The translations under genes were made by a program, and so were the position numbers. Source: Lingula anatina (taxonomy: Eukaryota; Animalia; Brachiopoda). From it: DNA of 64,000 bases. The stretch covers positions 38,508,401-38,572,400 of the forward strand of contig CM120641.1 of assembly GCA_051362555.1 (NCBI GenBank), read 5' to 3'. Below, piece after piece: positions 2,074 to 25,700 of this stretch; within the stretch, counting starts at the first letter, position 1, and every line of letters starts with the position of its first letter. The notes under the pieces are model-generated. The model was not told the origin of the DNA and ran no database searches. It saw nothing but the letters and a program-made list of their open reading frames with translations.

Positions 2074-2413
2074 ATTCAGAACAGATGATCCTCAGATCTA
2101 CCGATTCTCGGATCAAATATGGCTGACCCTACATGAAAGTAAAACTGCTTAATTTCGTAATGGTCTCTCCGCCACCCACACGCCTCTCACGCGTCGTTCC
2201 TGAAGGGGCACAGTAATTAATTAATTAATTAATTAATTAATTAATTAATCTCGACGCCATTCGACAGGTAGCTTTAATTACTGTGCCCCTGTAGGGACAA
2301 CGCGCGTAAGAGGCGTGTGGTAGGCGGAGGGACTATTACGGGATTAAGTGATCTTGCTTTCTTGTAAGGTCCGCCACATTTGATCCGCGGATCAATCTTT
2401 TCCGAATGCAACC
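2068..2413. mobile_element. Second related foldback MITE abutting the first, with a central (TAAT)n expansion
   Basis: Inverted arms ggatcaaatatggc...ggggcacagtaattaa / ttaattactgtgcccc...gccacatttgatcc. (TAAT)n at about 2214-2249. A related fragment lies at 9865-10032. Confidence 0.7.
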
Positions 2414-3223
2414 TAAGACTCGCTACAACTAAGATAGAAAAGATCTTGGGTTCTAGGCCACAACCTTGAAACTCGCCTTTCTCTATAGATTGGCTTCCCG
2501 AACAAAGCATACGAACTATTCTTTACTCTGAAAAAGACTTCTCCCTTTGGGAGTGAATTTCCTGTCGTTTCTGTTTTGAATAAGCTTGTCATTTTTCACA
2601 GTGATCGCTTCTTCAGCTAATAACAGTGTGTAATATGTTAGAGGGGACCTTTCAGATGGGCGTGGCAAAGACAAAAAAACAGCAAAAAGGGCATCCGTGC
2701 ACTCCTCTGTTGTAAATGCTCTTTTATAGGTCACGAACCCCGAAGGTGGGTGAAGCCTTTGCTTAAATCTTTAAGTCCCGAAGGTAATATTAACCACAAA
2801 ACATGAATGATCATGTCTCACGCAAACATTTTACAAAAAACACCAAGTGAAAGTCAATGTTAGACTCAATAACGTCTGTTCTCGTCTCTTGCGTTCCCTT
2901 GTGACTGATAATCATGAGATTTCAGACCACACGTATCAGTCTAACCACAAACCGTGTATGTGCTCGTGGAAAATGGTCTGCTTTATGTTATTTGAACAAC
3001 AATTACTAATATCTACTAAAATGATGCCATATTACAAAGGGCACTACCTAATAAGTACGCTTTCTATTATTACCTTTTGTTGTCATGAGGAAGAAAGTAT
3101 TAAAGGAATGGTGGGGAACGGCTGTTATGGGATCTCTAATAGAAAGTTGGTCAACAGATACAGATAGATAATGAAATACATCACTAACACGGTGATTTAG
3201 TATGCCATATAACAGAAAAAAAT

Positions 3224-3271
3224 ACACTACACTACACTACACTTATACTACACTACACTACACTACACTAC
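3224..3271. repeat. (ACTAC)n microsatellite
   Basis: About 9 tandem ACTAC units with one variant. Confidence 0.9.
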
Positions 3272-3390
3272 AGAGGATAAAGTATGATAATATAATGTAA
3301 GAAATGGTTTATACTTCAAAGCATCACTGCATGGTTCAAAATATATTTCGACTTACATATAGCGGTTTGTCACATTGCCTCAAATTGCAG

Positions 3391-5734
3391 ACTGGCTTGA
3401 GCCATGCTAGCGAGCAAGGGTTCATGGACATATTGCGACCCCTAGGCAGCTTGGAAGGGATGGATGTCAATATCCCCGATAACGAGGGAAATACACCCCT
3501 GATCTTCGCAGCAGAGGCAGGTAAAAGAAACTGTTTTATTTATAGTATTTATTACATGGAAATATACTCCCCTAGCAAAAAAGCGTCACCAGCAATGCAA
3601 TGCGTAAAATTATCTACAAAAAAATCAAGTCACAAACCAATGTTTGTTATTCATCTTCTAAAATGATTTTTTCACCAGGAAGGCTGAGTAGCATAATCAT
3701 GCTGAAACATATAACTGGGTAGTCACGACCCCCAAAGATATTCTCGACAGAGTTTCTGAAGTTCCTTTCCAGTACTTGGATGCATTGCTCTGCGTTAAGT
3801 TTTCCGTTGACCACCACCGGCTCACCTAAACCATGGTAACCAATACACTTCATGCCATGACTGATATGCGCCCTGTCGACCAGAGGCAGAAAATTGGGAA
3901 GATACCCTTCTTACCCTTACCAGCTGTTCTCCAAAACCTTCAGCAGGCGTCACTTCTGACAAAAACTGAACCTCCTTTCATATGATAACAGTATCATAGC
4001 CAAGTTGCTGGCTGGTGTCTTCTGACGGTAAACTCAGAAACATGGTTTTGCCTGATTTTGGTTAAATGTTGCAGTCAAGTTCCTTGATGTCATGAAACGT
4101 TTTCAAAGTAGAAGGCGTCCCAGCATTCTCTTTTCTTTGGGTGCGGTGTCCTTCGATCGGCCTTACCTAGGCAATCTTGCCCATGTGGCCCCTTGGTTAT
4201 GATGTTGTGTAACCCTCTGGATGGTTCTTATGGTACAACCCAACTTTCATGGTGAAAAAGTATCCCTCTCACTTACTCCAATGGTCACGCTAGGTAGGTC
4301 AGTTGTTTTACTACTCACATCTCAAATTTGAACGATGATCGGTTGTCTAGTTTTTACGTAATAGTAAAACGATGGGGACCCTGCAAGCAGTGTAAAAAAT
4401 GCCGTAGTGGTGACACTTTTTTGATAGGAGAGTATATAATGCATTAAATTGGGTCTCCATTTGCACTGATAATTTCAATACGGTATGTTGAAGACTTTTG
4501 GAAGCGGTGAGAATACATTACGCCAATTTATGAAAGGATTAAGGTTACATACACCCATAGCAGATTAAATGCTTTATATTGAACTTTTTTTCTGTAATAT
4601 TATTATATAATGCTCATGGTCATTATTTGTCTTCAGAAAAGGTTGTGAACGCCCGGCAGATAATTCATTGTGTGGGCTCTATTTCTACATTTACAGGTCA
4701 GCCGGAAGCCGTCAAGTTTTTAATTCAAAATTTTCCGGATATCAATATTGACCAAGAGAACGAGAATGGTTTAACTGCGCTCATCAAGGCCGCCATTCAA
4801 GGGCAAAGCCAGACTGCAAGTCTTCTCTTGGAAGCAGGTAAGGAATTCATTGTTTACAGGCATTGTACAACAGAAGTATTGGATTGTTTGTACGTCTTTA
4901 CTGATGCCATGTGGCAATGAATAAGAAAATACTGTTTCTACAAAAAGTTTTTTTTCTCCTAGATTGAAGGTAATTTTACAAGGTAGCTGTTTGTCTTCTT
5001 CATTTGCGATAACTAGTTGCAAAGACCTGGTATGTTCAGTGTAACATGCAATTAGGAGATAAGATATAAATGCCAGAAGGCATGTACATCCACGTGCTAT
5101 CTTTACCAAGCACCTACTTGACGACAGTAAATGCGGAAACTTATTCTTTTTTACCATTTTCCAAAACTTGGCTTATCACACCTAGTGCTGTAAATTTGCC
5201 AAACACGTGCAGTATTTAATTTTTTACAATAAAGATTCTTCTTTATTTATATTTCTCTGTTTTACAGGTGCATCGGTTCTTCACAAAGACAAAATGCGAG
5301 GGATGAACGCCCAAGAATGGGCGCTTTATTGTGGCCGAAAAGACTGTGCGGACAGTATAGCAAAGTTCCTAAAAACTAAAAAGACGTGGTTCAAAAAACA
5401 TGGAACGCCACCATGTATAAGACTAAAACAGCAGCACCGACAATCAATCAGCGAACCAGACCTAATTTATGCAGTAAAGAACAATGATCGCGGATTGAAA
5501 GTCAACTTCCAGCAAACTTTCAGGAGAATATTCAGTCGCTGTACGGGAAACAAAAAACGGGAACTAACCCCGAATAAACAAGCATTCCAGCCACTCGTGC
5601 AGGCCGCGCGTTGCGCTTCATCTCCACTTCTCCCAGATATTGTGAGTCCGCCTAACTCACCAATGATCTTTAAGAGAGAATGCGTCAATCAAAGACCAAT
5701 AATGATTGTTCCCAAGGTGAACATTTCGCCTTAG
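3391..5734 (+). CDS. ANKRD33B: Ankyrin repeat protein, ANKRD33B/PANKY-like (5' exon(s) not identified)
   Basis: Exons 3391-3520, 4697-4837, 5268-5734 with AG/GT sites and phases 1/1. They translate TGLSHASEQGF..DVNIPDNEGNTPLIFAAEAG / ..NENGLTALIKAAIQG..LLLEAG / ASVLHKDKMRGMNAQEWALYCGR, resembling the ANKRD33 family ankyrin pattern (recalled). Confidence 0.75.
3567..4432 (-). mobile_element. Degenerate, internally deleted Tc1/mariner element in an intron of the ankyrin gene
   Basis: TIRs CTCCCCTAGCAAAAAAGCGTCACCA / TGGTGACACTTTTTTGATAGGAGAG with TA on both sides. Minus-strand transposase fragments: CIGYHGLGEPVVVNGKLNAEQCIQVLE, FQHDYA and LPR*GRS. Confidence 0.9.
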
Positions 5735-7965
5735 TGTTATCTTTACATATATATTTTACACACAACATCATAAATGGATTTTCACTGAAATAAATAGGAA
5801 TGCTGGCAAGAAAATGTTGAAGCCCAATTTTGCTACAGGGCGGGAGAATCACTAAATACCAATCGATATTTTAACAATGCGGTAATTTATGGTACACTTC
5901 ATTGCCTCTAATATGGTATCTAGTCAAAGATTCCGAATTGAGAGAGAGAGTCGTTTATTTCCACAAAACAACGCTGAGATATTACTGAGATGTTCAAAGG
6001 GAAATAGAAGAGTTTAAATCAACACTGATTCTACAATACATTACGTTTGTGCTGTGGCCTTTTTTTTTGTATTTTAAATGTCAAGTCCTTTGTGCGTTCT
6101 CAGTTGACGGAGCATTGCACGGCGACGGAAATAAATCAGAGGGATAACCTCCATGTCGTGATCCTGAATCTCAACGTGAGGTCAATTAATGTCCAGGGAC
6201 AAATGTGCCAGTATAATTGATCTCCGGCAGAGGTTACTTAGCCGTACACTTTTACGACTGGGCAGCAGAACTGTCAAATGGACAGACAATGTGATTAGAA
6301 TTCATGAAACAAATCTGCACCAAAGATATAACTATTACGTAGGGCATATTTTATATGCGTGAACCACTGGAGCACCTAACTAGACAATACATTGCTTTTC
6401 TCGGCAACGCGACTACCTTCTTGGCTGGCATTTTTTAAATTACTAGATAACAAATTGGAAGCTGTGGGGGCATTACGAAGTTGTCAGTTTTCAACACGAA
6501 CACATTCATAAAACTTCAACTCATTTATTTATATGTTGTATATTTAAGTAGCATGTCGTAATTTCTTTTAAGTATAAACTTGTTAAAATCTATAAAGATC
6601 ATGTGTGAGATTCTTTTAAAATTTGGCATATTCTTCTCTATTCTGGATTAAGATCATGTCATTCCTCTGTTAAAAGCATTCTTTAATACATTAAAATGTG
6701 ATGTTCAAAGTATTTGTGACATACCTTTACAATAAAACACCTTGCAAAATTGTGTGTTGTATCACATAAAAAAGACAGTTGTATGTAATGTGAAAAGATG
6801 ATAAAATTACACAATTCACATTTGGATCGAAATCTATCCACTATGCCTTGCTCTATTACTCTTTCATAAGTTAAAACTTTACTCAGCAGCAACCAGGCAG
6901 GTAAATTTGGAATTCAAAGTTCCAATTTAAAATATCAAGAAAATAATGCCTGGAGTGTTTGATTACAACTGATAAAATATCTTAAACTAAAAAAAAAAAA
7001 TAAAAATTAAAACCTACATCAAAGCAGTCTGTATTTTGCATTTTCTTAATTTTCTGGCAAAAATCATCTTTACAGAAAAAAGAAATACTTTTTAAAAAAT
7101 TACATAATAGTTTAAAACAGTAATATTAAAGTTTTAAACATTTGCTCCATACTTTTAATATACTTAACAGTCTTTGTACTTGACGAGATAACTTTTAAAA
7201 TATACAGTATATCTGAATACACATTTAAAAAAATCTGACGTAAAATTTCTCACCTTTTGAAGCACTTTATTAATCTCCTTTGAAGCACTTCATCTTTTTT
7301 TCTCACATTTAGCTGAGCATGTATTTACCACAATTAATAGGATCTCGAAAGTGTACAATGGCACTTTTAAAATATACAGTATATGGTTTCAGGATTTGTC
7401 ACTGATGCATAGATGCACTTTCAACACATTCACATACTTTTAGACATTCTCTAATGCTAAAATAATGAGGTTTGTAATGATCCAGCAGTGTTCTTAGACA
7501 AGACCATTTGCCAGCATTTCATCTCAGCCTCCATAATGAGCCAACAGTAGGTCATTGAAGAAATTAATTGGACTATTATACACCTTATAATTGTTAATGT
7601 ATATAATAACATAGATATAACCTGCATAATCTCCATTGCGACTCAGCAGTATTTTTGAGACAATGCATACAGAGCTTGAACATTGTGTCTTATTCAACCT
7701 TCAAATGTATATTACTCAGCAGCAACACACATGAAGAAATGCAGTTGGCAACTGTCAATTTTTTTCTGTGATTGCTGTTCCAAGAGGAATTTCATGAACA
7801 TTAATTTGCAGTGTGTGGCTGTCAACAACAATCAACTGAAGCCACTGGAGTGCTTTTATGGCCAGGTTCTGTAAGGATAGCAACAGCTAAAAAACATGGC
7901 ACCCTGGAGTTAAAAGTGCCTGTCCTCACTTGCTTTTGTTAATAAACCATTAGAAAACCTGTTCA

Positions 7966-10900
7966 TCATACTTCATACATGTTGTAGGAGAAGTGCTGTG
8001 GGTTTCCAGATAAATGAATATTCCGAAAGTCCTCTGGAAAATCAGAAAAGTCTAATGTTAAGAAAAATTGACTTGGTATCTCTCATTTCTTCAACTTTAT
8101 AATATAAAAGTCTATCATTTTGACAGCAGCGTACTTTGATGACAAGATAAACATTACTGGCTTCTGTTAGCATTTTAACAAATAGGAAAATGGTGATAAA
8201 GTTGTAGTCATGAACTTTTAACATACCTTGTAAGCCAAAAGGCAAGTCATCTTCAAACTCCATCTGGGTCTTAGATCTCTCCAACAGCTCTGGGTCATAC
8301 TGATCCACAGCAAAATTGAAGGACAGAGCTGAAAGTAGACAAACACACTTAAGTAGGAAATCTATTACGACTGAAAAATATATAATGTAATAAATTTCAT
8401 ATCAAATTGTTATATGTGACCAACTGCCTAAATGTGAAAATATAACATTTTCAGATTTGCCACATATTGAAATGTGGATTATATAAATGCACAGACAGAC
8501 ACCACTGTCAGTAAACTTCAGTTTCTAAAGAAAGGAGTCTTCAATAGGCTGCATATTTAATATTGTGAGGACAGATCAACTCTTGGCATTTCAGTGTCAT
8601 CCACAGCCAGAGATGGCTAATTTACAAGAAGTTTCAGAATACTGTGTCATTTTGAAAGACCTCTGGATAACTGTAAGGAAATACTACATTGTTTTCTTTT
8701 TCCTAGAGTCTTTCACTTCTTAATGGATAATTACAAAAGGATCTATGGCTGTACAAAAACAAAACATAAAGATACAGACATCTGTCATAATGCAAAAAGT
8801 TACACAGGATTACTGAAAATTCCTACCAATAAACATCTAGTAAATCTTGAGAAAATTCTGTTTGGAAAAAAAGCAAGTCATTTAGGTACCTTCTCCTGGA
8901 AATAGACGCCATCATGGCAATTAAAACTTTCTGATCACCATGAAGTAGACGGCTTAACATGTATTCTCTATTAACTGAACAGTGAGCGGATTAACTATGG
9001 GATTTGAAAGGCCACACAGGGTGAGACAACTGTAGAATTGCCAAGATTCTCAGTCACATACTCTTGGTAGTTGAATCCTAAAGATATTCTATACAGGATT
9101 TACCCACCAAAATGAATTTTCCTCCGTAGGGTGGTGGTGGTGGTGGTGGTGGGGGAGGGGGGAGTGGAGCAATTTTCTTCTACTCATAAATCATTGCTCA
9201 ACCCATTTTTACACTTCGATTCGATGTTTTATTCCATTTCTAATTCAATAATTTAGTTTGATAGGACTGGCCAGTCATTTAGAATGCCATGTTCTTTATT
9301 GTACATTTTAGAAAGAACTATTGACACCAGGCACTTTTACTTGACCGGTTTTATAGTTTTAAGGTCTAAACTGGAAAAGAATGCAGGATATGTAGAGATA
9401 GAAAATTATATGACTTTGGGAATTTTTCAAATGCATGCAGTACACCTTTAAACATTTTATTAAGGACGTTTTTGGATGCGGATGCAGTTTTGCACACACT
9501 AACAACACAAACAAGCCAATGCAATAAATTTACCACAAGTTAAATTATTCAAGAACATGATTAGCACTGTTTATACATGTACCATCAAGAGAATTGAAAG
9601 TGGAGCCACATGTGTACTTGAATGCTTTGTAAGGAATTTATAAAATTAATACCCGGCGCGTCTTATACATGAATTGTGAAGATTATTTACTTTTTGAAAT
9701 TCATTCTCATACATTATTTGTCAAACTGCTATTTCACACAATTAAATAAAAATATCCAATTAACTAACAATAGCTTCTGAAGACAGACATTAGTCCCATA
9801 GGACAGGCTGTATAAAGAGAGGTAATGACACCCTTAGAAACTAACATAGATCGCATTCACAACGAGTCCGCCTCTCACACGCCTCCCCATGTGTCGTCCC
9901 AATGGAGCCGAGATTTAATGACTGTCCCCCCGCAGGGACGAAGTGTGGGGAGGTGTGTGAGAGGCGGAGAGACTATTAAAAGATTAGGCGGTTTTTCTTT
10001 CATGTACGTCCGCCATATTTAGTCCCCAGGATTTGTAAAGCCTGGCTCAACTCGTTGTGAATGCGATCATAATGTCAGAAAACAAAGATGGTATCAGGAC
10101 ATTCCGTTGTATTTCATATAATGTGACAATTTTTGGACCTTGATATGAAATAGTACCTGTCAATATTGCATGGATTTTTATATATAAGTATACATTATAA
10201 AGTAGTTTTAACAAATGTATAGATATCTTCCTTCTTTTTTTTTTCTTTTGGCTGTTTAAGGTAAAAAGAAAAAAAGACTTCACTAGCGTATGTGAGCCTA
10301 TTGAAGTACATGTTAAGTAAAGAAACACTGGTCATGAAGCACCTGTGACATCAAACCCTTTACTGAAATGACCACCAGTTTATACATACACACATTTTAG
10401 CTGTCCAGGTGGTCCAGGTGTAGACCTTAATGACAAAACCCATCACCTAGCATGTATATGGACCACCATATGATGCCTTACAGCAAATATCAATTGAAAG
10501 TGTTTCAGAGGAAAAATTTCCTTTGGGATCTTAAATGGTTTGACCCTGGCAGAAAGATTGAACAAGCTAACGGCAAGGAGTTATAACAGAAGGAGATTAC
10601 ACGCAAGCCTTTCTATTGTCCGATGTCTGTTACGGTGGGCGGAGCTAGCTACGGGGGGCCTCCGGTCTCAAGGTTTCGTCTGCGTCGCTCTCCTCAGCTT
10701 GGAGATAAATTTCATATGCGTTATTTCGCGTTAGAATTCGAGATCAGTAATGTCAAAGCGCCGCTGTATGCTGACGATTTTTTTCACAGGTAATTATTTG
10801 GACGATGTGCTGGAAGGGAACGATATCATAGAAAGCGATTATAAGGTGGTGACTGAGGATGGTCGCCATGAGCTTTTTTTAGTCGGTGATAGATGGCTTT

Positions 10901-13900
10901 TTTATGGCACAACCCGGTGAAAAATCACCAAGGAGAAGTCAAAAGAAAACGTCCCAACTGTGGTTTGTGAAAATGACGTTCAAGTGAACGTCTGTCCTCA
11001 CTGCCAAAGGACATAATATTAATACATTAACGTTTGGACCCTCCTGCCCTTGGGTCCCATAAACATATACATTGTGACAGTGCCTACGCTTTGTGTCTGG
11101 TTTTAAATTTCTTAAAGTATTTTTTCTCTCACTCGGTATAATTTTAATATTATAATGCATTTAATTAAAATTTTAATCCAAGGTTGAGGCAATGCCACGA
11201 CAAGTCAGTTTACTGAATACTCGTTATAAATTTCTTTATCTTGGAAATTTCCCTTTTTTTAGGATTATTTGACACGTACTAACACTGTTCATATTTGTCG
11301 GTAAACAAGTGCACAGTGCTATACATTAAGAATAATTATTCATTCATAAATATATTTATGTACAAAATATATCAGAAATTTTAGTATTCACTGAGCTCTT
11401 TAAAGTGAAACAAATAAAGATGAGAATATTGAATTTCAAACTATTATTTACTATATTAACTTAAAATATCTTTTAAGTCAATTCTATACTCAAGCACTCT
11501 ATACTCATGAAAAGTAGCATCTGTGAGTAAAACCATTTTATTATATCAATAGAAGAACAAAAACAAAAATTTTACACATAAGCAGTAATAAATGAAGTCA
11601 TAAGAATGATTAAGTTGCTACAGTTTTCCAGTTTTATGCAGTCTATAATGGCATTTTTTTCAACCGTGCAAATAGAAATAATTATATTCTTTTTTATCTG
11701 ACTTGCTGATACCAGTCTGTGCCAGATACTATTCCACTTACAGGCCAGCAAGGTCTGAGAATCTAATGGGCTGAATGAAAAAAAAAAATCCTAGAAGATA
11801 AAGTGGTTAATTCTTACAAATAGGATGAAAAACATGGGATTTTCAAAAGGTTATTATAGATCAAGACAACACTTAGTAAGAACATTTATAAAATGTAACA
11901 GCTGAAAAAATTAACTGGTAAGTAAGCAGTAAGTGACTGCTTTAAAGAAATTTCACTGAAACAGAAATTTCACTGGCAATCAGGTAGACTGTTATACCAT
12001 GGCACTCAACAATTTATATATAGGTTTTGAATTTTTTTCCACGTAACAGTAACATAAAATTTATGTCCACTTTTGCAATGTATAGAGTCAGTTAGGTGAC
12101 TGAAAATATTTTAAAATGTCATAAAGGAGCACTATTAATTTAATGCAATCTCTGTTGGCCAGTCTTATCCAGTTTCTTCTCCAAAAAGGACAACTCAAGT
12201 GAGAATTTCTTCAGGGCCTTTTCTTCTGCCTTGCTAATGCCATGCCACTCAGAAAAGAGAGAAACCTGTAGGTTAGAAAAAAAAAACATAATAATAGCAT
12301 TATGAACTACTAGTATCCATGTAGACATTATGGAATTATGCAGTGAAGTTAATGTGTCTTGTTATGACTTGACTGAAATAATGTTCACCACATAAATGAA
12401 CAATTTACAACTAAATTTATATGGAACATCAAGATTCATGATTACAAGCTAATAACCCCCAAGAAATTGAAAGAAATTGTACTTATTACAAGAAATTATT
12501 TAAATCCGCCCTGGTCCCTACTCTTCTGACAGGACAAAAAGGGGATTTCAGAGAGGCTGGTTGCTAAAAGGAAAATGCCCAAGGTTGTTGTATTTAGAAA
12601 AAAAAAATTAAAAAGGGTACTGTTGTTAGTGAATGTTTAATGCATCTTAGGCATTATGACAAAAAGTAACTTACCCCAGACACACTGACCTCCTTTTTTC
12701 ATTGACATATTTTAATTTTTTCCAGCCTGACCATAATTCATATATTCAATGCAGCCTTCTCCCATATCTATAATAGAAAAAAAAACTTGAGTAGTGTTAA
12801 GATATGCATGTCAAATTCATTATCAATTTTGAGAGAATTTCTGTTTCAACACTACAAGATGAAATATTTAATTTCAAGTAATGAATAAACCTTAATAGAG
12901 TTCTATTCTTTTGTAACCACCAAGGCAAAGCTTCTTTCTTAAAATGAACTGAAACATCCAAGCTTGCAACCTAACATGCCAAAGTAGTGAAGTATAATTT
13001 AAGTAGAGAAGCAAGTACCCCTTAATTATAGAGGTGTCTTACACAATAAGGTGTGTCTTACACACCTCGACTCAAAGAGAGATGTGTAGTGAGATAACAG
13101 GTAAAATAATTGGTGGAGCCTAGGTGAACTTAAAACCTTAAGACTTTGAATTAAGAAGCACCAGGATTCATGTGTGTTCTTTTTTCAAAGGTTTAATATG
13201 AATTAAAACATATATATGTAAAAAGAAGACTAAATAAGTTAAAAATAACTATACCAAAGACACTGTGAAGTCAAACTTCCTGTTAGACCGCCATGATGGA
13301 AAATGCTGGGTGGAGGCAAAATTTTCCAGTCAAAAAAACTGAGCACTTTACTTTAACAACAAAGTTACCACTCCAAAGCCACCCACCATGGTGAGAAGAA
13401 AAATGATGACCAACTGTCATGATAAGTCTTTTTAGATTTAGACATGAAAAAGGTAAAGGCCAAAATGGTACATTTACCCATAACACTAGAGTAAAAAATT
13501 GGTATTCTGAACAAATCGGGTTATTTTTTTCAAGAAATATTGGAGCAGTATCCATGCAATATATACCACGCCACGACCAAGATGTTCAAGAATCTAAACA
13601 CACCAATTTTTTTTATAATCTTGCATTTGAAAAGTACAAAAAGCGGTAAGGCTTTCGGCCGTAACAAGCGTAACACTTTTTGATCGGAACTCATGAAAAT
13701 TGTCAATTGTCGTATCCAAGCTAGACCACATGTAAAATCGCAAAAAAAAACAATACTGCTCAAGCAAGTGTGTTGCACACATAACAATTAGTTAAATTTT
13801 ATGACTGTCATGTGACACAAGTTTCAAAAAGTAGGAGGAAAATGTCTTTTGGAGTAATTTTTTTTTCGAAAAATTAACAAGATGGCGGTTTAAGCATCTG

Positions 13901-14687
13901 CTTGTTATTCGGCTACTGAAAGTGCACCTAAGTTTTATTCTTTGCTATTGCCACAAATTACTTAACAATTGCAACTGTATAAAGACCAAACTTTCTTCAT
14001 CTGATACTATATTTATAGGCACTTGTTATGAGTGGGAAATATTTTTCGTGCAATATTTATTCTCCACACACCACCTCGCGAGATCAACGTGTAGCTGGAC
14101 ACTTACACAGTGAGACCCTACGACATAAAAGTTGCAATTTATCTTCATATTTCGTGTAGTTATGCATTTAAAAGCACTTACCTGTTTTTTGAAAACCTTG
14201 TCCAACGTAATATCATATAAATTCTGTATTTCTCTCATTTTTTAGAAACTTGGGACTCCGTTTCTGTTTCTGTCCTCAAAAATCAACAGACGAAGGCACA
14301 GATACTAACAAACGAGATTTAAACGAGATAGCAATTAAGCGTAACAGAGATAGGCATCCATTGTTCTCTGGGTTCTATTCATTCCGACCAATGAGAGACC
14401 GTAATACGGGCTCCGCCCCCACGCGTGTAATCTCCTTCTGTTATAACTCCTTGCTAACGGGAACATTAAAAATAGGTGCTCATCGGTCCAAAAGAAAAAA
14501 ATGAATACATAAAAAATTAATGGAAACCATAAATAAATAAATAAATACGACATTTTATAAGAGAGACACAGATAAAGGCCAGTGCTTACCTGCTGCTGAT
14601 GGCATATACTTGAACCAAAGAGGTCTGACAGGTGCCTCCAACCTTGGAAACCACTGAACAGCCTCTATATGCTCAGCTAAAAATGTA

Positions 14688-14733
<46 letters not shown>

Positions 14734-16723
14734 TGGAGTTCATCACTGTAAGAACAAGTGATAAAAAGTTGTAGGTGTGACAAACAGCTTTGTGGTTAGG
14801 TCACATAGCAAAATTATCACTTATAAGTGATTCTCTGCCCACGAACCATGCACTGCTGTCGTCATTGCAATTCAACAAGACTAGTTTTACATCACACAAT
14901 GCTGTGGATCAATCAACACCTCTTTCTGTCCTTATTTCTTTTTTTAAGATGAGGGGTCAATAAAATTCAGCAGGTGATAAGTTATTTAAGCACGATGAGG
15001 TAATGACGTCTGCAGGCTGTTTTCCATGTACTAATCTGTCAGGAAATAAATTGAGGGGAACCTACTGTAAATTTGTTCCATCAACATCTGCTGTTTAGCT
15101 GCTACCACTTCTGGATCCCACATATGCAGCACACGTTTGCTCTTGCCAGTCAAGGATGTCAGTAACTTCTTTCTGAAAACAATTGGTTTATTCATAAAAT
15201 GAATACCAAGGTTTTAAACTGAAATTATAGGTGTTTTAATATGAAAGAACCATTTCCATTAATCAAATGAGAAAGCTAACTTAAAGGCTTCCACAACCAC
15301 TTGAGAAAATTGTTTCTTTTAGAAAACACAAAAAATGGTTTTGACTTGACAAAGTGTATCAAGTGCAAAAAAAAAATATGTTCAGTGCTTAATTTGTTTT
15401 TCAGTTTTCACAAAGGAGCTGTCAATGAAACATTTTACTGAAAGAACAGATCAGTCATCATTTAATTACACATTTCAAACCCACATATCTCTCAACCAAA
15501 TAGAATAGCAGGATGAAAAAACTAAAGCCTGGTAATGATTTTCATTATTCCCCATTGTCAAAAATATGTCATCTTCCCAAATAAAGTTCAGTGGACAAGA
15601 CACAGTTAAAAGTGCATCCCTATAAAGTTCTCTTATCTATCTTCCCTTGTGCATATAAAGTTCTATAATAATCTAAATGTTAAATTGGGTTTTAGGTACA
15701 TCAAAACTTTGAAATGACCACCAGTCAAAACTGTGCCCAATATTCTTTAAAAACTCAGCTCTTTCTTCATCATAATAACACAAGACTCAAACCTACCAAG
15801 ATATTTCCATTCTATGCCCATTACATACAAGACAATTTACATCTGTAATCTGCAATGTGCATTACTGCAGTGTCTCGCAGGAGAAATCAGCACATAAGTA
15901 AGGATTCCAACTGGAATCCACTTATATCCTGCATTTTCTCTTAATGTGGCTCTCCTAGCTCACTTAATAACAGCCAATCTTTCCCTTAATGCATCAGGAA
16001 ATCTCTATCTGATCTATCCACTTACCTGTAAAATTTTCTCCATGCTAACTGAATTGTGAGAGCTGCAATTTGTCGCTTCCATTCCTCTTCACCAGCTTTT
16101 AACCTCTTAGACTTAATGGCATCTGCAGCACTCTTCATGACTCCTTTGAAGCGAAACACATAACTGGAACAGAAATTTGTGATCAATTTAAATTTGCTTT
16201 GAGGTTTATTTTGATAACAAAAGGAGAAGAAGCAAAAAAAACATCTTAACACAAATATTCTGCCATACTTTCTGGATTTCTTTATATTAAAATCATATGG
16301 GTACAGGTGGTAAAGTAAGGTTCCTTTACATAATACATTGAAAAAGAAGTTGGATACTGTATGTACAATCAAAATAAATAGATAAACAATTTGCTTCTTA
16401 CTGTTTCCAAGCTCTCTGAATTACTCTAGCAGCATGTTCTTTCCTTCTGAATTCTGAAAGTCTATCTCTTTCTTTAGAGACAATCTGTCTGTTTTGTTTA
16501 TTAAGTAATAAAATTCTCTCCTCCTCTGATAACTGAGGCTCTCTTTTCCTAGAAGAAGAAAAATGAAAAGCATTATCTAGATTTCAACAAGTTGCATTTC
16601 AGCATTCATTAATTAAGAGAAAAACAATTCCATAACCTTACTGGAAAAAAGCATTTTTTAAATGAACAAAAGTAAACCCCACAACATCATTCTGTTTAAC
16701 AGTTTTATGATGGTATCCATCCA

Positions 16724-16763
<40 letters not shown>

Positions 16764-19700
16764 CTAAACCTCCAAGTTATCTTCAACCACTGTAGAAAAA
16801 AAAGCAAAAATTGCACTCGTTTTCCGTCTGTGGATTTGAAAATCTTTAAATTCAATAGACAAGTACCTACGTACTAATGCTGAAAATCAAAGGCTGAATG
16901 TGCTGTTTGCATTTTTAAATTGATTGGGCTGTTTGGATTTCATTGTGCTGCATACTAAATTGCCATTAAGAGTTTTGAAAAGGGTTTTATTGATCTGTTC
17001 CTATGAAATCTTGTCTTTTCAAAACAATTTGACTGGATTCTTGAATATTTTTTGTAAAGTTGAGGGCTTCTGATGTATTAGGGTTTGATTATCAATGAGA
17101 AGAAGATCTACAAAATTTTATCTTTACGAAGAAGATTACACTTTCAATAATGAGAACATCAGATTATGCTACATAAGAGAAGGCAACTGAATGTCAATCA
17201 CCTATGAAAATACCAACAACATGCTAAGTCTACATTGATTTAACCATCTCTAACCCCAAAAGGTTTTGCTACACTTTATCAGATATCCATGCAACATTCA
17301 TAAAAATCAATTTTTCAAACATGCTTGAAATTAATATCCTCCATGCAGAAGTGGGCTGCAAATATTGTAAACTGAAACAGCATGCAAAACTAGAACTGCT
17401 TGAATTGATGTACACTGTTGGGAATAAGCAGGCACGTGTTCACTCAATCTAACAAGTCTTAAAACATTTGTTCAAATATCCCTCGAGGCTTACAATGGTA
17501 ATTAATTGTAATGAAACAGTTGTTTTGCTTGCAAGTTGTTATTTTAAGATCACTTGAACCCATGATTTATGAAAAGTTTTTTTAATATGCTACCTTTATT
17601 TTAAACGATCATTATTTTGCTCTAGGTTTTGGGTGCTGAACCAAAAACATCTTCAGCCACTAGTTACATTTTGATGCACTTTTAAAAGTTTTTCTGGGCA
17701 TAAATCTATTAGTATTCTAACATAGTTATTCAAATAAAAATCTGGCTGCTGTGAGTCAAAGATTGGCACACGATCTCACCAGACAAATGAAACTTGTCAG
17801 TCATCAGTGCAAAATATTGGTATCTTTGACAGAATTCATGTTATCCTTAAAAGAAACCCTATGAACACTTAGCAGTCTAATTTCCATTATACCTCAATCA
17901 TTACTGCCATAACAGGAATATGGCACATTTGCCTTGGTGACAGAATTTCTACTGTAAAACAGTTGTGCTAAGACCACATATCTCAATTATTTCAGAAGAA
18001 TATTAATATCTTTTACATGTGTACTTTAGAAAAGACCCAGGGACTGCACATTGGGAGTCTTGCCTATCCTCCTGAAGCTAAAGCAGAGCAAGTACTTTAT
18101 ATGGAACCCATGCGGTTTTTGAGTGCTTTGACTCCTTTTTTTAATGGCAGGGGGGAAGAGTGGACTTGTATGAATAAAAATAGCCAAAATATAACTAAAC
18201 AAAAGCATAATAGTCATACTCAAGTTTGAACTAAGATAGTAAAAAGATTTCAAATCTGCCCCTAAAAACATATTTAATAATAAAATAGTTAATTAAAAAT
18301 AACCATTAAGTCATGTAAAATGTAATCACACTATTACAACATAAACGGTAATTGCCATATTGCGTTGCATAAATACATTAAACAGAAACCATCAAGTAGA
18401 AACAAAGCTGGTACATAGGGAAATGAAAATGGTAGGTATAATGCATTAATGGAAGCTTGGACCTAAATAGAGAAGGACAAGAAACGCGGCATCTTCCTTT
18501 GAAGCTATGTGCGTTCGGGTAAACATTCGCCTATTGTCTCACATAATCTGTTTTGATAGCTCCACGGGCGTCTGAACAGCTTATTATCAAGGTAGCGCGC
18601 GCTGTGCTTCAGTGCATTTCTATTGTTTCTCTGCATTGATAACGCAATTTCTCGCAGTCCCTCGTGGTTGCTATGATACAGCATTGCCGCCATCTTACAG
18701 TTGCGAGCACACAGGTTTCCGTCAACACGTGGAAATTTATTGAGGGGTTTTCGGCATTTTTCCCCGTTACCTCATAAAAACGGGGTGTGAAGTTTGTCTT
18801 CAATACCTGCTGCCTTTCCCTGTCCGTGAGGTAGTCTCTGACAGGACAGGAATACGCACCCAACGACCGGAAATCTCATTCCTACATGTAGGCCTACCAG
18901 TAGCTGTGACACCCCGGAAGATCAATCAAATTTACACAAGAACTGACTGCTGGTGAATCAGACAAATTAAAAATGGACCTTTTTAGCATGTTTGTGAAAT
19001 TATATATTACCATTAGGGGCCACTCATTTCGTAGACAGCTTAAAGAAAAGTACCAAGAATCTGTGTCTGCATCTACGAAAGAAAAAGGATTGAGAAAGTC
19101 TCTCAAAAGGAAGAGTAGAATCACAGCTTGAATTATTACCTAGATTTTCAACAAACAGGCAGTATGATCTTGTGCATTTATAACATTTGGGTTTTTTCAC
19201 TTCGCAATTAAGATCTTAATTAGAAATTTCATCTAGGTTTACATTAATTTTAATTAGTTATTTAAGAGTCAGATTTGTCGTATTAGTTTGGTAGAAAATA
19301 ATACACCAGGTACCAAAATATGGCTTTCCGTTTTCAGTTACTGAAAAGCAGTCGTAATTCAAGAACTTATTATAAGTATTTATAATATTTGTTTTTTTCA
19401 TTCAGCAACTATCTTTCATTTATATTTTGCTTTATTTTTCATTAAAAGTTACCCGTTTACAATATGAGATTAATTTCACCAATACTGATCTTATGCTAAT
19501 AAAAAATACATATATTTGATATAAAAAATCTTCTTTTTATTTCTTTTCACTTCCTTTTTTTTTTTACACAACTTTAAATAATAAAAGATTTGACAAATAA
19601 GACGCATATCACTGCAAGAGGGTCAATGTCAAATGTGAGTATGAATTTTATCAGGATCAGATTTTTTAAACCTGTAGTTAGTGTATTCTGAGGTAATTGA

Positions 19701-22700
19701 ATATGCAATTTCAATCAAGCAAGAAAAAACTGTCTAAACATATAATCCATGTTTTTTACATTTGATTTTTTTTTCATTATAAGATAGGAAATATAAAACA
19801 ACTTGAGTACATTCCAATATTTATTATTATAAAAGTAAACATTAAAATTTTAAAATGCTTGTTACAAAGCTAGTGATGATGAATATACAATACATGTGCA
19901 GTTTTCTTGTCTTGTCTCTTTTTGTGAAAGTCATGGAGTTCTTTCCTATTTGTATCCAAGTAGTATTAACTTATTTATAAAAGGTATAAACTAATTTCTC
20001 ATTGACCTATGTGAATTACTGTCCAAATGTTTAATTAGTGAGTCTCCTCTTGGGCAATGGTGCATTGTCCAATTTTAACTTTCCGGCATCTTGTGGAGAG
20101 AATCTGGAAGAGAATAAGAATGTTTTTATCACAAACTACTATAAATGACAATTGCCTTTTTTACTTCTACTTGGACATTTGAGCCACAGGTAAGCCTTAT
20201 CAAATGCATCTCAAGATTCTACCTGTCAGGTAGATTTTCCCTCTAGTTAAATTTACTTCCCTTGTTAGACATGGACTTTCTAGATCATTATCAGCCAGGT
20301 AACTAAGACGTCTGGCCCTTTGATGATTTGATAAAGCCAGCTAGGTGCTATCCAAAGGCATGTCTCAGGATTATTTCAAAGATTTCAAGCACCTGATAAC
20401 AAAATAATGCAATGTAGCAAGGCAATTACAGAGGTGAGACTCTTATCACAAATGTGATCAAGATCTACTTTTATGACCATTACCCGAGTAAATATAATCA
20501 TGAACTTTGCATGTGTACATGTCCACATATACACTTTCACTATAAGACCAATGAGGGTGTTTGTCAATCGTCTTTATTCTGTTTAGGGAATCCAATTTAA
20601 AAATGAAAAACTTATTATTCTCAAACTGGAGCAGACTTTAGCCGGTCATGTGAATATACATATATACTTCAGAGTAGAGTTAATGTCAACTTTGATAAAA
20701 GGATATTAAAAGGCCCACAGGTGCGTTTTTTGTGTGTCATAATTGCATGGGTGGTGCCATATTGCAATGATAGCCCATATTAAGAGTTAAAAAAATAATT
20801 ATTATCATTCTCAGACTGGAGCTGGCTGGAGCCGGTAATGTGTAAATATATATATATACTTTCGAGCAGTGTTAATGTCAACTTTGATAAAAGGATATTT
20901 AAAGAATCACAGTGTGGTGTCATATTGCTATGATAGCCCATATTGAGAGTCAAAAAAATAATAATTATCATTTTCAGACCAGAGCTGACTGTAGCCGGTA
21001 ATGTGTAAATATATATATACTTTAGAGCAGTGTTAATGTCAACTTTGATAAAAGGATATTAAAAGGATCACAGGTGCGTTTTTGTGTGTCATAATTGCAT
21101 GTGTTGTGCCATATTGCAATGATAGCCCATATTGAGAGTTATAAAAATAATAATTATCATTCTCAGACCGGAGCTGACTGTAGCCGGTAATGTGTAAATA
21201 TATATATACTTCAGAGCAGTGTTAATGTCAACTTTGATAAAAGGATATTAAAAGGATCACAGGTGCGTTTTTGTGTGTCACAATTGCATGTGTGGTGCCA
21301 TGTTGCAACGAGAGCCCATATTAAGAGTTTAAAATATTAATTATCATTCCATAATTCGGGCTCACTTAAGCAAGTAACATAAACCTATACATATAGTACA
21401 CAGCGGTGTTGATGCCACCTTTATCTAAACCGTACGTAAAAAATACCAGACCTAAAACGATGTCGGCGAGTCGAATAAATCGGAGAGGAATTGCGTCATT
21501 TCAATTCAAAACACGATTTGAGGTTAAATTATTGCCGCATCTATGGCTAATTCTTTACATAGAGGTAAAATTTCGAGACTAGAAATATTTTTCTATCGGA
21601 TCATAGCTAAAGACAAGTATTCGACACCGCAGTTGTACAATTTTAAACACTCATTTTACGGCAACAAACACGATTGCCTTCACCATATTGGGCATTTTGA
21701 ATTCCTCCATGAACAAACATACCTTATTCTCATCTAGCATCCAAAATAGCAAAAGAAATTGTACTTACATTTTATCTCTATAAGTGTCTTGACTCATCCA
21801 CCCGAACGTTTTCCTCGCGTTATCACCAGCTACCTGTCCAAATGACACAAAAAGTCATCAACAGCCGCGATATGCTCGCTACCTGTACGGGAGGCCACGT
21901 GATCCGAACGCACATCGTTTCGCGAAGAGCTCGCGCTAAGCCGATTATCCTTTGATCTTTCTCCGCGTTACTTGTCCTTCTCTATTTAGGTCCAAGATGG
22001 AAGCAAGCACTGACAACATATCCTAAAATCAATAGGCCCCTTCCTGGACCACCCCTCGCTTAGTTTCTAAGCTGGAGCTGGAGGCGAGAAGCCAATTAAC
22101 ATACGGAAATTAAACAAGAATGTTTGCTTGTGGATAGGGCACTCAACTGTGACTGTAAAAAAAAAAAAAAGGATGACATTTTAATAATGTTCTCACAACA
22201 GTTCTCACAGGTCACAGGGAAGCAACATCAACAATTTTCAAGCAATGAGACAATAACACAGGGCCATTTTGACGAAACAAATACATCAGTTTCAATTAGA
22301 GAGAAATAAACTGTAATTAATAAGTTTCAAGTATTTTATTTGTAAATGGTAAACACCCAAAGCTTCTGTTCCAGAGGTGATTGATTTTCAGTCACTCAAA
22401 CACTCATTCAGTTGCAAAAGCAATCCATCAATGGGAACACTTAAATCAAGTTATCTGAGAAAAATTTACAAAAAAAGGGTTCTTCAAGTAGTAATTTGAT
22501 GTCTAATACTTTCAAAGAACATTTTTTTCAGGTAGGTACAAGATTTCCAATTTCTCAAATCCCATACCAGACAGAAATCATCCCTCTTGTCAGCTTAGTG
22601 TTGCCACACTGATTGTAATTCCAATCCTATGTGACATCTAGACATGACATCTAAACGTTATACATTGTGCCAAATGACACTTCTTTTCCACAGTGACATG

Positions 22701-25700
22701 TTAAAGTACAAATCAATGTTCTATTCAACTGAAGTACATTACTCATGGGTTTTTTTATATATATACTGGAATGTTAATTCTTTTCAAAGTGTGAGAGTGC
22801 ATAATATGCAATTAATTATTTCAAATTATCCCTTTTTGGTAGATTATGGAGGTCAATTCCTTAAAGAGAGGGCACTGGTATGGCAGGCTAAGTTATTCTT
22901 AATTTCCATCTATAAGCATCACCTTAGGGAAATTTAATATTGTCTGCTGTCTAGGCACAATCGCAAATGGAGTTTTGTTTCGTAAGGTGTAAGAAATAAG
23001 TACAAGGATACATTTTATGTTAAGGTCCCGTAATAAAAAGAACTAAAAACATTCCAATCAAGCAATCATTATTAAATAAAAAAAATTCTGAAACAAAACA
23101 AATCCTGCAACCTTGAAACAAAGAAAAACCCAACCACTCAGACCTGCAAGAATTCTGCAGTCAATATGTCATCACTCATGCTAAGAAAATGTTTAATTGT
23201 TTCCGTGCATAATTCAACCACCCTAGTGCAATACCTAAAAGTTAGGTGACCACACATGACTTCTCACACTTGCCACTACCCACATTGTTAGTCATAAACC
23301 ACTGCGTGAGTGTTAATAGTGACAATATGAAAACACCTGGTGGGGAAAAAAAAACAGAAACATTCTTAGTAATAAGGCACTGATGGTGTGTTATTAAATA
23401 ACAAATAAACACCAAGTTGTTCCATTAAGGAGCAATACCAACCCTGACGGCCCCATAATGTAGTTACATCCAACAATTAGTCCTGACGTCTGCTTCGAAC
23501 CTTCAAATTAATGTGGAGTCATGGGTCATTTCTCTTTGTCATATATGGCAAAAGTACACTGTACCAAATGCCTTAATTTGTTCTTGTGCGATGCATGTCA
23601 CAGAACTTACTTACTTGGTAATCTTTCATCATAAATGCAAGATTTTTTCCTTCAAATCTATTCATTTTGAAATAATAAGTACTATCTTATTAATGTTGAT
23701 GAATTGATACGTTTTTTACCTTTATCTTAAAAATATGTAACTGTCACATACATAAACATTCCCATGTGGACATACATATTTACAAAAAATGAATAACAAT
23801 CACTCTTGATAGCATTACATACTTGTCACTTACTTCACAATAACAAAATAACATGTCACATGCATTTGCCAAAACAATATTTCATATTCAGTTGTCAATA
23901 TATTCATCACTTCTCCCTTTGGATACACTGGAATCTTGAAAGTGAAGATGCTTACCTTCTTGATGATTTACTGTGTCCTTCCCCTAATTCAGTTTTCCTC
24001 CTTTCTTCTACTTCTCTCTTGTTTCTTATGTCTTCTTTTCTTCGATATTCTTCTTCAGCACGTTTTCTGAAAGACACAATTACTCTGGTGAGAAAACATT
24101 GTTCATACAAATTTTCATAAGGTATCCTTTTACATCATTTACACTGCAGTCAAAACAATTCCAAAATTAAAATAACAAAACACTTATTACACCATTTAAC
24201 TCAAGTGTGACTGGATAAAATATCAGTTTTTACTTTAAATCACTATGCACAAATCTACAGGGTATTTCCATGTCATGCAGACGAGTAATTCAAATGGCTC
24301 AAGAACAGCAGTTTCAATATCAAAGCCATCAGTGAAAAACAATGCTTTAATGAAAGGTAGAAAGCAGTGAGTAAAGCTATTCAAATTGAAATACTAACTT
24401 GGCAGCATCCTTCCTCAACTGTTCATGTTTCATTAACAACTTCTTCCTCTCCAGGAAAGTTTTGCGGACTCTATACCCTCGAAAATTGGACTGAAAGCAC
24501 AACAGGGATATTAATATGCATAAAATATATCATGACAACAGGGGACTCTTAAAATAATATATAGACCAATGAGGGATATCACCCCCCTTTATTAGTTTAA
24601 TAAGTACAAAGAAAAGATCACATCTCATAAATTTATCAACTGACTGGGGTTTTTTCTAGGTATTTTTTGTTATTTGTGGTCTTGACAGATTGCAAATAAC
24701 AAAAGCAAGTATGCAACCAGTCAAAGTGTTAAAGCCAGGGAAAAATAGATAATTTAAAGCCCTATGTATAGGATATATTGATTCTAAAAGTGATTTTTCT
24801 TAAAGTCTAATTATCCAAAAAATTAGCCCAAATAATTAACACCTACATGAACAAGCACCAATTTTTAATGGATAGCGTACTGCCTTAATTTGTACCAGTG
24901 TTGCTGTACAAGCTCTCCATGTTAAACCTTGAGCAATTAGATGGTCTTTCTCTTGGCAGCAAATCTACATGATATTGAGCTTTCCAAGAAAGGTATATCT
25001 ATCATTTTTTTCTCTTCCTGTGACAGCAGCAAAAATGTCAATAAATTTTCATTTTTATCTGTCAAATGTGCTCCTTCATTTTTATTGATGATATTTAAAC
25101 TGGATTTTTACTTTGTAGGGTATTTTATTTGAGAAGGACAGTTGGTAAATGGCCTTGAGTGGACAAAATTTTTTGCCTAGGAATGTGCCTGAGAAGACAC
25201 CAGCTTCCCGACTTTGAACAAATATAGATTAGACAAACTGGAGATAAAATAATTTTAAACACAGAATAATGATGAATACATGAGTGAAATATACAAAAAA
25301 AGAAATTACTTTAAAATATATATATTTACAGCATAAATTTATCTCCCTGTGTTGTTAACATGTAAATAAATTGGACATGTTTTACAAAGCTTGCCTTAAA
25401 AAAACATTTACAAATAACTGAAATACCATAATTATATTGCTTTCCTTCAAATGAAGTTAATGGATATTGGATACTGGTACAAAATCTATAACAATAATGC
25501 TAATGAAAAAAAACCTTTATAACAAAAACATCCTTTCTTAAATTGGCATGAAATCATTATTGATGGAACTGCTAATTCAGACATGCCTTACACTGCAAAA
25601 CACTTATAAGCAATCAACCAACAACCTCAGAATAAAGTACCTGCTGTTGCCCAATAAAACCTGGATGACTACTTGATACAGCAACCATATGCATTGTCTT

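What the first reader, a model, noticed from the sequence alone, without database searches (positions are those of the whole stretch)
10567..22003. A family of transposase-less P-like cargo transposons with two inward-facing promoter-like ends and convergent small genes
Seen: two different multi-kb elements in INVS introns share one design. Both have exact 7-bp TSDs and alignable TIRs (CAAGGAGTTATAACAGAAGGAGATTACACGC vs CTTGGACCTAAATAGAGAAGGACAAGWAACGC; shared C..GGA..TA..AGAAGGA..ACGC). Both have CpG-rich ends in AT-rich DNA, a short unspliced ORF running in from the left end and a spliced mini-gene running in from the right end. I see no similarity between their interiors and no transposase. 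Known: TIRs of about 31 bp and 7-8 bp TSDs typify the P superfamily. Inference: a Pack-type P lineage that carries and may express small accessory genes.
Basis: partly seen in the sequence, partly recalled or inferred. Interest (0 to 1): 0.85.

Follow-up and report, generated by a model that had tools for sequence, protein, structure and literature searches.

The report
Remnants of a two-gene P transposon
Two recently mobile, multi-copy jumping-DNA elements sit in introns of an animal gene (likely of the brachiopod Lingula); one carries not captured cargo but the leftover end of a gene from an unusual P-type transposon whose cutting enzyme is encoded in two facing genes that likely work together, and the other is probably of the same kind.

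Summary
Both elements are real. A (10574-14453) and B (18456-21996) have 31-34-bp TIRs, 7-bp duplications, CpG-rich ends, empty alleles in other individuals and many copies. The 'Pack-type cargo' reading fails for B. Its left ORF is the last 64 codons of a 391-aa Lingula protein whose C-terminal half folds like the C-terminal domain (CTD) of Drosophila P transposase (best of 48,161 chains, Z 11.5). In 17 of 23 loci carrying relatives of that gene, a P transposase faces it on the other strand. That transposase usually stops about 70-79 residues after the catalytic-Glu motif, so it lacks a CTD. Three complete elements have TIRs and 7-bp duplications. B is therefore most likely an internally deleted copy of a two-gene 'split' P transposon. 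Its spliced right-hand transcript is probably the transposase promoter joined to the last codons (weak match). A has the same outline and a strongly expressed spliced RNA, but only 28-33-aa ORFs and no detectable homology, so its P membership is inferred. The autonomous Lingula element was not seen. My paper searches found no description of split P elements; Repbase and Dfam were not checked, and this scan had already noted them in other genomes.

The parts
10567..10573 (.). A: left 7-bp target-site duplication
   Evidence: identical to 14454-14460; empty allele skips 3,887 bp in X1, X2, X3
10574..10604 (+). A: left TIR, 31 bp, perfect
   Evidence: loose ends with mixed flanks at 10574 in RNA runs
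10605..11023 (+). A: left CpG-rich, promoter-like end (GC box at 10637) with short ORFs (10623-10793, 10750-10920) and a splice donor at 10790; no homologue found; RNA mostly antisense
11500..12265 (-). A: last exon of the right-end transcript (3' end not mapped; 11500 is nominal)
   Evidence: junctions into 12265 and depth up to 109 in X12
12483..12563 (-). A: optional exon (donors after 12490 or 12483)
   Evidence: junction 12675-12563 in 61 and 11 reads; GT-AG
12675..12767 (-). A: exon 2; holds the stop of the 28-aa ORF
   Evidence: junctions; translation
14182..14301 (-). A: exon 1 of the right-end transcript, starting about 150 bp inside the right end; CCAAT (14388) and GC box (14418) upstream
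   Evidence: junction 14182-12767 in 149, 17, 0 and 118 reads; 7+7 molecule ends at 14300/14301 in X13; motifs
14423..14453 (-). A: right TIR
14454..14460 (.). A: right 7-bp duplication
18449..18455 (.). B: left 7-bp duplication
   Evidence: empty allele skips 3,548 bp in X1, X3, X4 and X18
18456..18489 (+). B: left TIR, 34 bp
18490..18936 (+). B: left CpG-rich, promoter-like end; no match to the 5' part of the CTD gene
18937..19131 (+). B: last 64 codons of the stand-alone P-transposase CTD gene, behind a deletion junction near 18938 (52-aa ORF from the Met at 18973)
   Evidence: 94% identical to the end of P0001; family profile E 4.6e-16; loose ends in 16 and 12 reads continue upstream
20032..20103 (-). 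B: coding part of exon 2 of the right-end transcript; ends in a PLPKRR-type basic tail like the last codons of the split transposases (weak, inferred remnant)
   Evidence: junction 21769-20103 in 2 and 8 reads; tail profile E 2.3, rank 2 of 3,531 window peptides
20559..21349 (.). B: about four copies of a 189-bp tandem unit inside the transcript's intron
21769..21962 (-). B: right CpG-rich end and exon 1 of the right-end transcript (start site not mapped)
   Evidence: donor at 21768 used; CpG o/e 1.47 over the last 600 bp
21963..21996 (-). B: right TIR
21997..22003 (.). B: right 7-bp duplication

Best explanation
Element B is most likely an internally deleted, non-autonomous copy of a two-gene P-type transposon in which the transposase core and its C-terminal DNA-contacting domain are encoded by separate, facing genes, and element A is probably a more eroded derivative of a related family. 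Shown in complete relatives: left TIR, CTD gene, then a convergent transposase gene (HTH, RNase H, GTP-binding insertion, catalytic-Glu motif, short basic tail), right TIR, 7-bp duplication. Inferred: each gene has its own CpG-rich promoter just inside a TIR, and the two proteins assemble into one transpososome that cuts and pastes with a 7-bp stagger. In B a deletion removed the first ~327 codons of the CTD gene (shown) and almost all of the transposase gene (inferred), leaving both ends, both promoters and two stub transcripts. A and B would be moved in trans by intact family members elsewhere in the genome (not seen directly; a longer CTD-gene RNA is expressed).
For: B-left ORF is 94% identical to the end of the 391-aa P0001. 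Reads in two RNA runs leave the window at 18938 into sequence that reads in frame as the preceding residues of P0001 (16 and 12 reads; frame read by hand). The AlphaFold model of P0001, residues 205-369, matches 6P5A_B (Drosophila P transposase 617-734) best of 48,161 chains: Z 11.5, rmsd 2.7, 115 of 118 aligned; next hit 8.3. Sequence agrees weakly: family profile to 6P5A_B E 0.019; Pfam Tnp_P_element_C E 0.004-0.15, below cut-off, in P0001, P0002 and 3 of 9 further members. P0001 has no RNase H match, and its residues 70-195 match the N-terminal half of the locus-derived CTD-gene profile (28.9 bits; best of 1,000 shuffles 6.2). Of 23 metagenome loci picked by the CTD gene, 17 have a transposase tail facing it (15 distinct; two pairs share identical tails), 1 has it in tandem, 1 has only a facing HTH piece and 4 have none (3 of these end within 165 bp). 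Pfam confirms P-type RNase H, GBD and HTH pieces. In 13 of the 17 loci with a motif hit the frame stops 69-79 residues after the catalytic motif (others 39, 45, 58, 98), and no peptide holds both tail and CTD. Of 4 loci picked by the transposase tail, 3 are real hits, and each has a facing CTD gene, TIRs of 35-51 bp and a 7-bp duplication. Their ends are CpG-rich too (13-23 CpG per 300 bp vs 4.5-7.5 inside). In B the CTD stub points inward from the left and the spliced RNA inward from the right, as in these elements. Empty alleles and high depth show recent mobility.
Against: No autonomous Lingula element was seen: no genome is held, so the DNA around P0001 is unknown. B's transposase remnant is only a weak match (E 2.3; an unrelated-looking B peptide scores as high). 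A shows no homology to any of four family profiles or to about 1,000 locus peptides (top 40 rows shown; the one row in A, E 0.006, looks like chance). The window TIRs are only modestly like the six CATAGAT-type TIRs of complete relatives (1.1-2.8% of random 34-mers score as high). P0001 is only 17-25% identical to the others and sits on a long branch. Foldseek found no match for the model, and Z 11.5 for an all-helical domain is below the ~13 that names as safe for helical bundles; the case rests on rank, coverage and agreement with sequence and gene context. Loci were selected by patterns from this family, so fused P transposases would be under-sampled. Activity of the two proteins together is untested.
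Confidence: 0.8

Rival explanations
1. Pack-type lineage: the elements captured, or evolved, small accessory genes that they express as functional cargo.
For: Both right-end transcripts are spliced at GT-AG sites. A's main junction has 149, 17, 0 and 118 reads against 29, 4, 13 and 37 for a host-gene junction (all copies summed). A's interior has no recognisable transposon protein, so host origin is not excluded there.
Against: B's ORF is a truncated piece of a transposon gene. Spliced forms hold ATG ORFs of at most 28-33 aa. No Pfam family reached its cut-off in any element ORF tested. No parental host locus is known, which the Pack-TIR definition requires (PMC8277862, passages); it could not be searched without a genome.
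Confidence: 0.08
2. A is unrelated to B: a non-autonomous member of another superfamily with 7-bp duplications (such as some hAT families), and the shared outline is a general feature of transposons with end promoters.
For: A has no protein homology. Only 6 of its first 11 bases match B, failing the Repbase rule for grouping non-autonomous elements, and Repbase lists hAT families with 7-bp TSDs (PMC4455052, passages).
Against: The A and B TIRs align far better than chance. Both have 7-bp duplications and the same polarity of transcripts. Flanks at other A insertions end in GTTAAAC- or GTTATAC-like consensus, close to the GTANTAC/GTATTAC target of the P-superfamily element Galileo (PMC4168063, passages).
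Confidence: 0.25
3. B derives from an ordinary one-gene P element; its left ORF is the tail of a fused transposase and P0001 is a partial gene model.
For: P0001 is a prediction from one contig, and its genomic context was not seen. The search for longer relatives used only the 64-aa piece and had 37 candidates.
Against: The part of P0001 upstream of the CTD matches the N-terminal half of the stand-alone CTD proteins and not RNase H. All three complete relatives with duplications encode it separately. A second, facing transcript is not expected of a one-gene element.
Confidence: 0.07

Closest known systems
Drosophila melanogaster P element, its 87-kDa transposase (PDB 6P5A) and its internally deleted copies such as KP
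   Same: 31-bp TIRs; RNase H core with GTP-binding insertion and HTH; helical CTD fold; small internally deleted non-autonomous copies (PMC7776569, passages). There the CTD hangs on a flexible, disordered linker and contacts transposon and target DNA.
   Different: One gene and 8-bp duplications there. Here two convergent genes and 7-bp duplications, a CTD with an extra N-terminal helical region, and no THAP hit in the N-terminal ORFs scanned (small THAP exons could have been missed).
Galileo (P superfamily, Drosophila)
   Same: 7-bp duplications with a GT...AC palindromic target (PMC4168063, passages), like the flanks at other A insertions.
   Different: Long foldback-like TIRs and a single transposase ORF.
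RAG-like (RAGL/ProtoRAG) transposons
   Same: Two convergent genes between TIRs (PMC7204232, passages); a layout analogy only.
   Different: Transib-related RAG1L plus an unrelated RAG2L, and 5-bp duplications; here the second gene is a piece of the ancestral transposase fold.
Pack-TIRs / Pack-MULEs
   Same: TIR-bounded, non-autonomous, often transcribed (PMC8277862, passages).
   Different: Defined by captured non-transposon sequence with a parent locus; B's coding remnant is the element's own gene.

Membership tests
P superfamily (element B and its lineage) | P-type DDE transposase with RNase H, GTP-binding insertion and HTH | tested here: met
   Met in relatives that carry the same CTD gene (Pfam TNP-like_RNaseH_N, RNaseH_C and GBD, several above cut-off; HTH just below). 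Absent from B itself, apart from a weak tail match.
P superfamily (element B and its lineage) | P-transposase C-terminal domain | tested here: met
   Present, but as a separate gene: Z 11.5 to 6P5A_B; B holds its last 64 codons.
P superfamily (element B and its lineage) | Short TIRs and 7-8-bp target duplication | tested here: met
   7-bp duplications also at L024 (inner and outer), L025 and L026. None found at L009; L012 ends at the contig edge.
P superfamily (element B and its lineage) | N-terminal THAP domain | tested here: inconclusive
   No Pfam THAP hit in the N-terminal ORFs of L004, L009, L012, L024 and L025; short exons were not all scanned and the Lingula transposase is unknown.
P superfamily (canonical one-gene form) | Core and CTD in one polypeptide | tested here: not met
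   No peptide of loci L001-L027 holds both the catalytic tail and the CTD; tails stop 39-98 residues after the motif.
P superfamily (element B and its lineage) | GTP-dependent cleavage leaving 17-nt 3' extensions | not testable with these tools
   Needs biochemistry or excision footprints.
P superfamily (element A) | P-type protein remnant or autonomous partner with matching TIRs | tested here: inconclusive
   No hit with four profiles; TIR and 7-bp duplication fit; no genome to search.
Pack-TIR | Captured non-transposon sequence with a parental host locus | tested here: not met
   For B's ORF the source is a transposon gene. For A not testable without the genome.
hAT with 7-bp TSD (element A) | hAT transposase remnant or hAT partner with matching ends | tested here: inconclusive
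   No hAT Pfam hit among the element ORFs tested; partner search not possible.
Already described Repbase/Dfam family | Match to a deposited consensus | not testable with these tools

The most novel reading that the evidence does not exclude
A widespread animal lineage of P transposons uses a two-subunit transposase: a CTD-less catalytic core plus a separately expressed CTD protein with its own helical extension. It is still moving in a brachiopod, where both A and B are its derivatives. Their retained end promoters make abundant spliced RNAs or short peptides that could tune transposition, as KP-type deleted copies do in flies.
Probability: 0.5. Interest if true: 0.72.

Novelty: new variant of a known kind. 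Interest (0 to 1): 0.55.

Why it matters
In the fly enzyme the CTD contacts both transposon ends and target DNA but hangs on a flexible linker (PMC7776569, passages). A natural lineage that makes it as a separate protein would allow direct tests of what the CTD does. Its target preference, its part in the 7- versus 8-bp stagger and its role as a regulatory subunit could be assayed by adding it, leaving it out or swapping it. This window adds a bilaterian case with polymorphic insertions and an expressed CTD gene, which suggests a currently active element could be found in Lingula. It also shows that 'cargo genes' in non-autonomous TIR elements can be remnants of an unrecognised second transposon gene. 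The two window elements are themselves ordinary deletion derivatives.

Tried and rejected
No whole genome is held, so genome-wide TIR searches, consensus building and dN/dS were not possible. A relaxed shared-TIR pattern gave chance-level counts in the window (6 matches; 21 of 100 shuffles reach 6). Pfam on 30 window ORFs gave nothing above cut-off inside the elements. Ten window ATG ORFs were not in the protein collection by exact look-up. ESM Atlas gave only scores of 0.82 or less for P0001 and for the L024 CTD ORF. Foldseek against PDB found no match with E <= 0.001, and phmmer of P0001 alone against PDB found nothing relevant. Viral contigs held no relatives of either gene. Four of the 10 phmmer hits (P0003-P0006) were dropped: P0003 and P0005 were read and are repeats, P0004 and P0006 were dropped unread for their many-stretch matches. 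L027 was dropped as a 13-residue chance match. The idea that A's left ORF is the acidic N-terminus of the CTD gene got only a weak score (55 of 5,000 shuffles) and is not claimed. In-frame stops in A's exon 2 were noted; whether other copies lack them could not be read from the truncated variant tables (40 of 409 rows shown). Complex prediction for core plus CTD was not available, so binding was not modelled. No RNA holder was listed; RNA evidence comes from raw-read runs of the same species label (4 of 9 laid). Nine paper searches listed no title or abstract on two-gene or split P elements; most listed papers were not opened. The primary structure paper was not held; my recollection that that structure used two separately expressed halves is unverified, though 6P5A lists the CTD as its own 135-residue chain.
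Full report
OBSERVATION. Element A spans 10574-14453 (3,880 bp) with a perfect 31-bp TIR. Element B spans 18456-21996 (3,541 bp) with a 34-bp TIR and one mismatch. Each is flanked by a 7-bp direct repeat. The A TIR occurs twice in the window and never in 100 shuffles. The two TIRs align better than 19,990 of 20,000 shuffles, although only 6 of the first 11 bases agree. The four ends have CpG o/e 0.95-1.47, the interiors 0.09-0.38 and three host stretches 0.20-0.46; 22 of the 28 CpG-rich 200-bp bins in the window lie elsewhere, so CpG richness is not special to these elements. The interiors share no DNA or protein similarity. Spliced reads place A in intron 8329-14589 and B in intron 16550-23443 of a minus-strand gene with ankyrin and IQ-like motifs. 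The label INVS fits my recall and was not tested.

MOBILITY AND COPY NUMBER. No genome is held. I laid 4 of the 11 runs listed as DNA and 4 of the 9 raw RNA runs. Contigs bridge the empty site of A in 3 of 4 DNA runs (skip 3,887) and of B in 3 of 4 (skip 3,548); 6 reads in X18 also show empty B. The skip lengths alone do not fix the duplication length (A could be read as 3,882+5, B as 3,540+8). For A, foreign flanks begin at 10574 in all four RNA runs (23, 17, 13 and 18 reads; agreement 0.51-0.55 in three, meaning mixed loci), and one other insertion shows the same 7 letters on both sides. Single contigs in B have about 16-28 times the depth of flanking contigs, and one in A about 90-105 times. 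The tool warns that depth is not copy number, so I read this only as tens of copies. X1 may be the source of the window and is not independent support.

TRANSCRIPTION. From A's right end a minus-strand RNA starts near 14300 and splices 14182-12767 (149, 17, 0, 118 reads in X12, X15, X18, X13) and then to 12265, with an optional exon. A host junction has 29, 4, 13 and 37 reads. Many reads differ from the window, so the signal sums copies and may not come from this one; one of three studies shows no such junction. The longest ATG ORFs in the spliced forms are 28-33 aa. A's left end is read mostly antisense to the proposed ORF. In B the right-end junction 21769-20103 has 2 and 8 reads and gives a 33-aa ORF. 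The left ORF region is read on the plus strand (depth 12.9, 2.1, 0.05, 9.2), and 16 and 12 reads leave the window at 18938 into one other sequence.

WHAT B'S LEFT ORF IS. It is 94% identical to the last 64 residues of P0001, a 391-aa protein labelled LOC106173704 of Lingula anatina, so the window is likely from Lingula. The loose end at 18938 reads in frame as the residues of P0001 just upstream, so a longer form is expressed and the window copy is a deletion product. The 5' part of P0001 is absent from the window. The AlphaFold model (mean pLDDT 69.5, 13 sequences) gave no Foldseek match. The wide VIA search ranked the Drosophila P-transposase CTD first of 48,161 chains (Z 11.5, rmsd 2.7, 115 of 118 residues, model 205-369; next 8.3). 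A family profile hits the same chain at E 0.019, and Pfam Tnp_P_element_C gives sub-threshold hits. Residues 70-195 match the N-terminal half of a profile built only from locus ORFs (28.9 bits against a best shuffle of 6.2), and RNase H profiles do not match P0001.

THE COMPLETE ELEMENTS. Twenty-three metagenome loci carry a relative. Seventeen have a P-transposase tail facing the gene (15 distinct), one has it in tandem, one has a facing HTH piece only, and four have none, three of which end within 165 bp. Pfam identifies RNase H, GTP-binding and HTH pieces. In 13 of 17 loci with a motif hit the frame ends 69-79 residues after the catalytic motif, mostly in a PLPKRR-type basic tail; the others end after 39, 45, 58 and 98. 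No peptide holds both tail and CTD. Searching from the other side, with the tail, gave 4 loci. One is spurious. L024, L025 and L026 each hold a facing CTD gene within 35-51-bp TIRs and exact 7-bp duplications. L009 and L012 also have TIRs around both genes, without a readable duplication. These ends are CpG-rich like the window's. B's exon 2 ends in a similar basic tail, ranking 2 of 3,531 window peptides at E 2.3: suggestive by position and strand, not significant.

MECHANISM. Shown: the two-gene layout, the missing CTD in the core gene, the CTD fold of the second gene, TIRs, 7-bp duplications, empty alleles and transcription. Inferred: the two proteins assemble into one transpososome; each end is a promoter; A and B are mobilised in trans. 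[quoted passage not shown] That makes a fission at this point plausible.

ELEMENT A. No profile or locus peptide matches it convincingly. Its link to B is TIR similarity, duplication length, a GT...AC-like target resembling Galileo's (PMC4168063, passages) and transcript polarity. Repbase has hAT families with 7-bp duplications, and A and B fail its 11-base rule (PMC4455052, passages), so I put about 0.25 on A being unrelated. Its strong spliced RNA is most simply a leftover promoter with little or no coding output.

NOVELTY. Internally deleted copies are normal for P elements. Nine searches of the paper library listed nothing on split P transposases. I read passages only of PMC4168063, PMC7776569, PMC10983969, PMC8277862, PMC4455052 and PMC7204232, no supplements, and saw the rest as listings. 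Repbase Reports, Dfam and most subscription journals were out of reach, so prior annotation is possible. After reaching this reading I found four earlier notes of this scan on two-gene P elements in other genomes; they are unchecked and not independent support. This window adds a likely brachiopod member, polymorphic insertions and expression of the CTD gene.

VERDICT. Real elements; the cargo reading is rejected for B and unsupported for A. B is a derivative of a split, two-gene P lineage (0.8). New variant of a known kind; interest 0.55.

Noticed in passing
RNA run X18 laid on window 10574-14453: Eleven reads join 10593 to 14437 with three letters between, and both flanks carry the same 7 letters. 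This looks like a roughly 40-bp A derivative made of little more than TIR ends, at another, transcribed locus. Its duplication equals the first 7 bases of B's TIR, which may be chance.
   Followed up: partly
window 9845-10075: A roughly 230-bp element with 19-bp exact inverted repeats and an inner 34-bp hairpin. Its left end starts CATAGAT, like the TIRs of the complete two-gene elements; no matching duplication was found.
   Followed up: partly
L024:1667-8552 and L026:3275-7711: Two-gene P elements nested in their own kind: L024 inner 2160-7652 inside an outer element with similar TIRs and its own 7-bp duplication; L026 4597-7711 beside or inside another CTD-plus-tail pair.
   Followed up: partly
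L024, L025, L026: The record titles call these bacterial MAG contigs, yet they hold intron-split eukaryote-type transposons and genes, so they are probably mis-binned animal DNA; the host was not determined. L024's inner element is 5,493 bp, the same length as earlier findings e1-6728889 and e1-6728883, so those may be the same element and not independent.
   Followed up: no
L015:179-4500: The one locus of 23 where transposase and CTD gene lie in tandem on the same strand, still separated by a stop; a possible intermediate or a local inversion.
   Followed up: no
window 10607-11013: Minus-strand RNA peaks again at A's left end (27.6 and 24.9 depth vs 7.8 and 5.5 in the next bin, X12 and X13), unexplained; and a plus-strand splice 10789 to 14246 skips the whole interior (4 reads).
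   Followed up: no
window 18504-21944: DNA contigs show several further deletion variants of B (for example 18562-21665, 18738-21217, 18830-19501).
   Followed up: no
window 1808-2044, 53481-53620, 31186-31571: Two other small inverted-repeat elements and a 194-bp tandem pair.
   Followed up: no
P0012: A family member carries a bacterial (Candidatus Thioglobus) label at its source, probably host contamination of an assembly.
   Followed up: no
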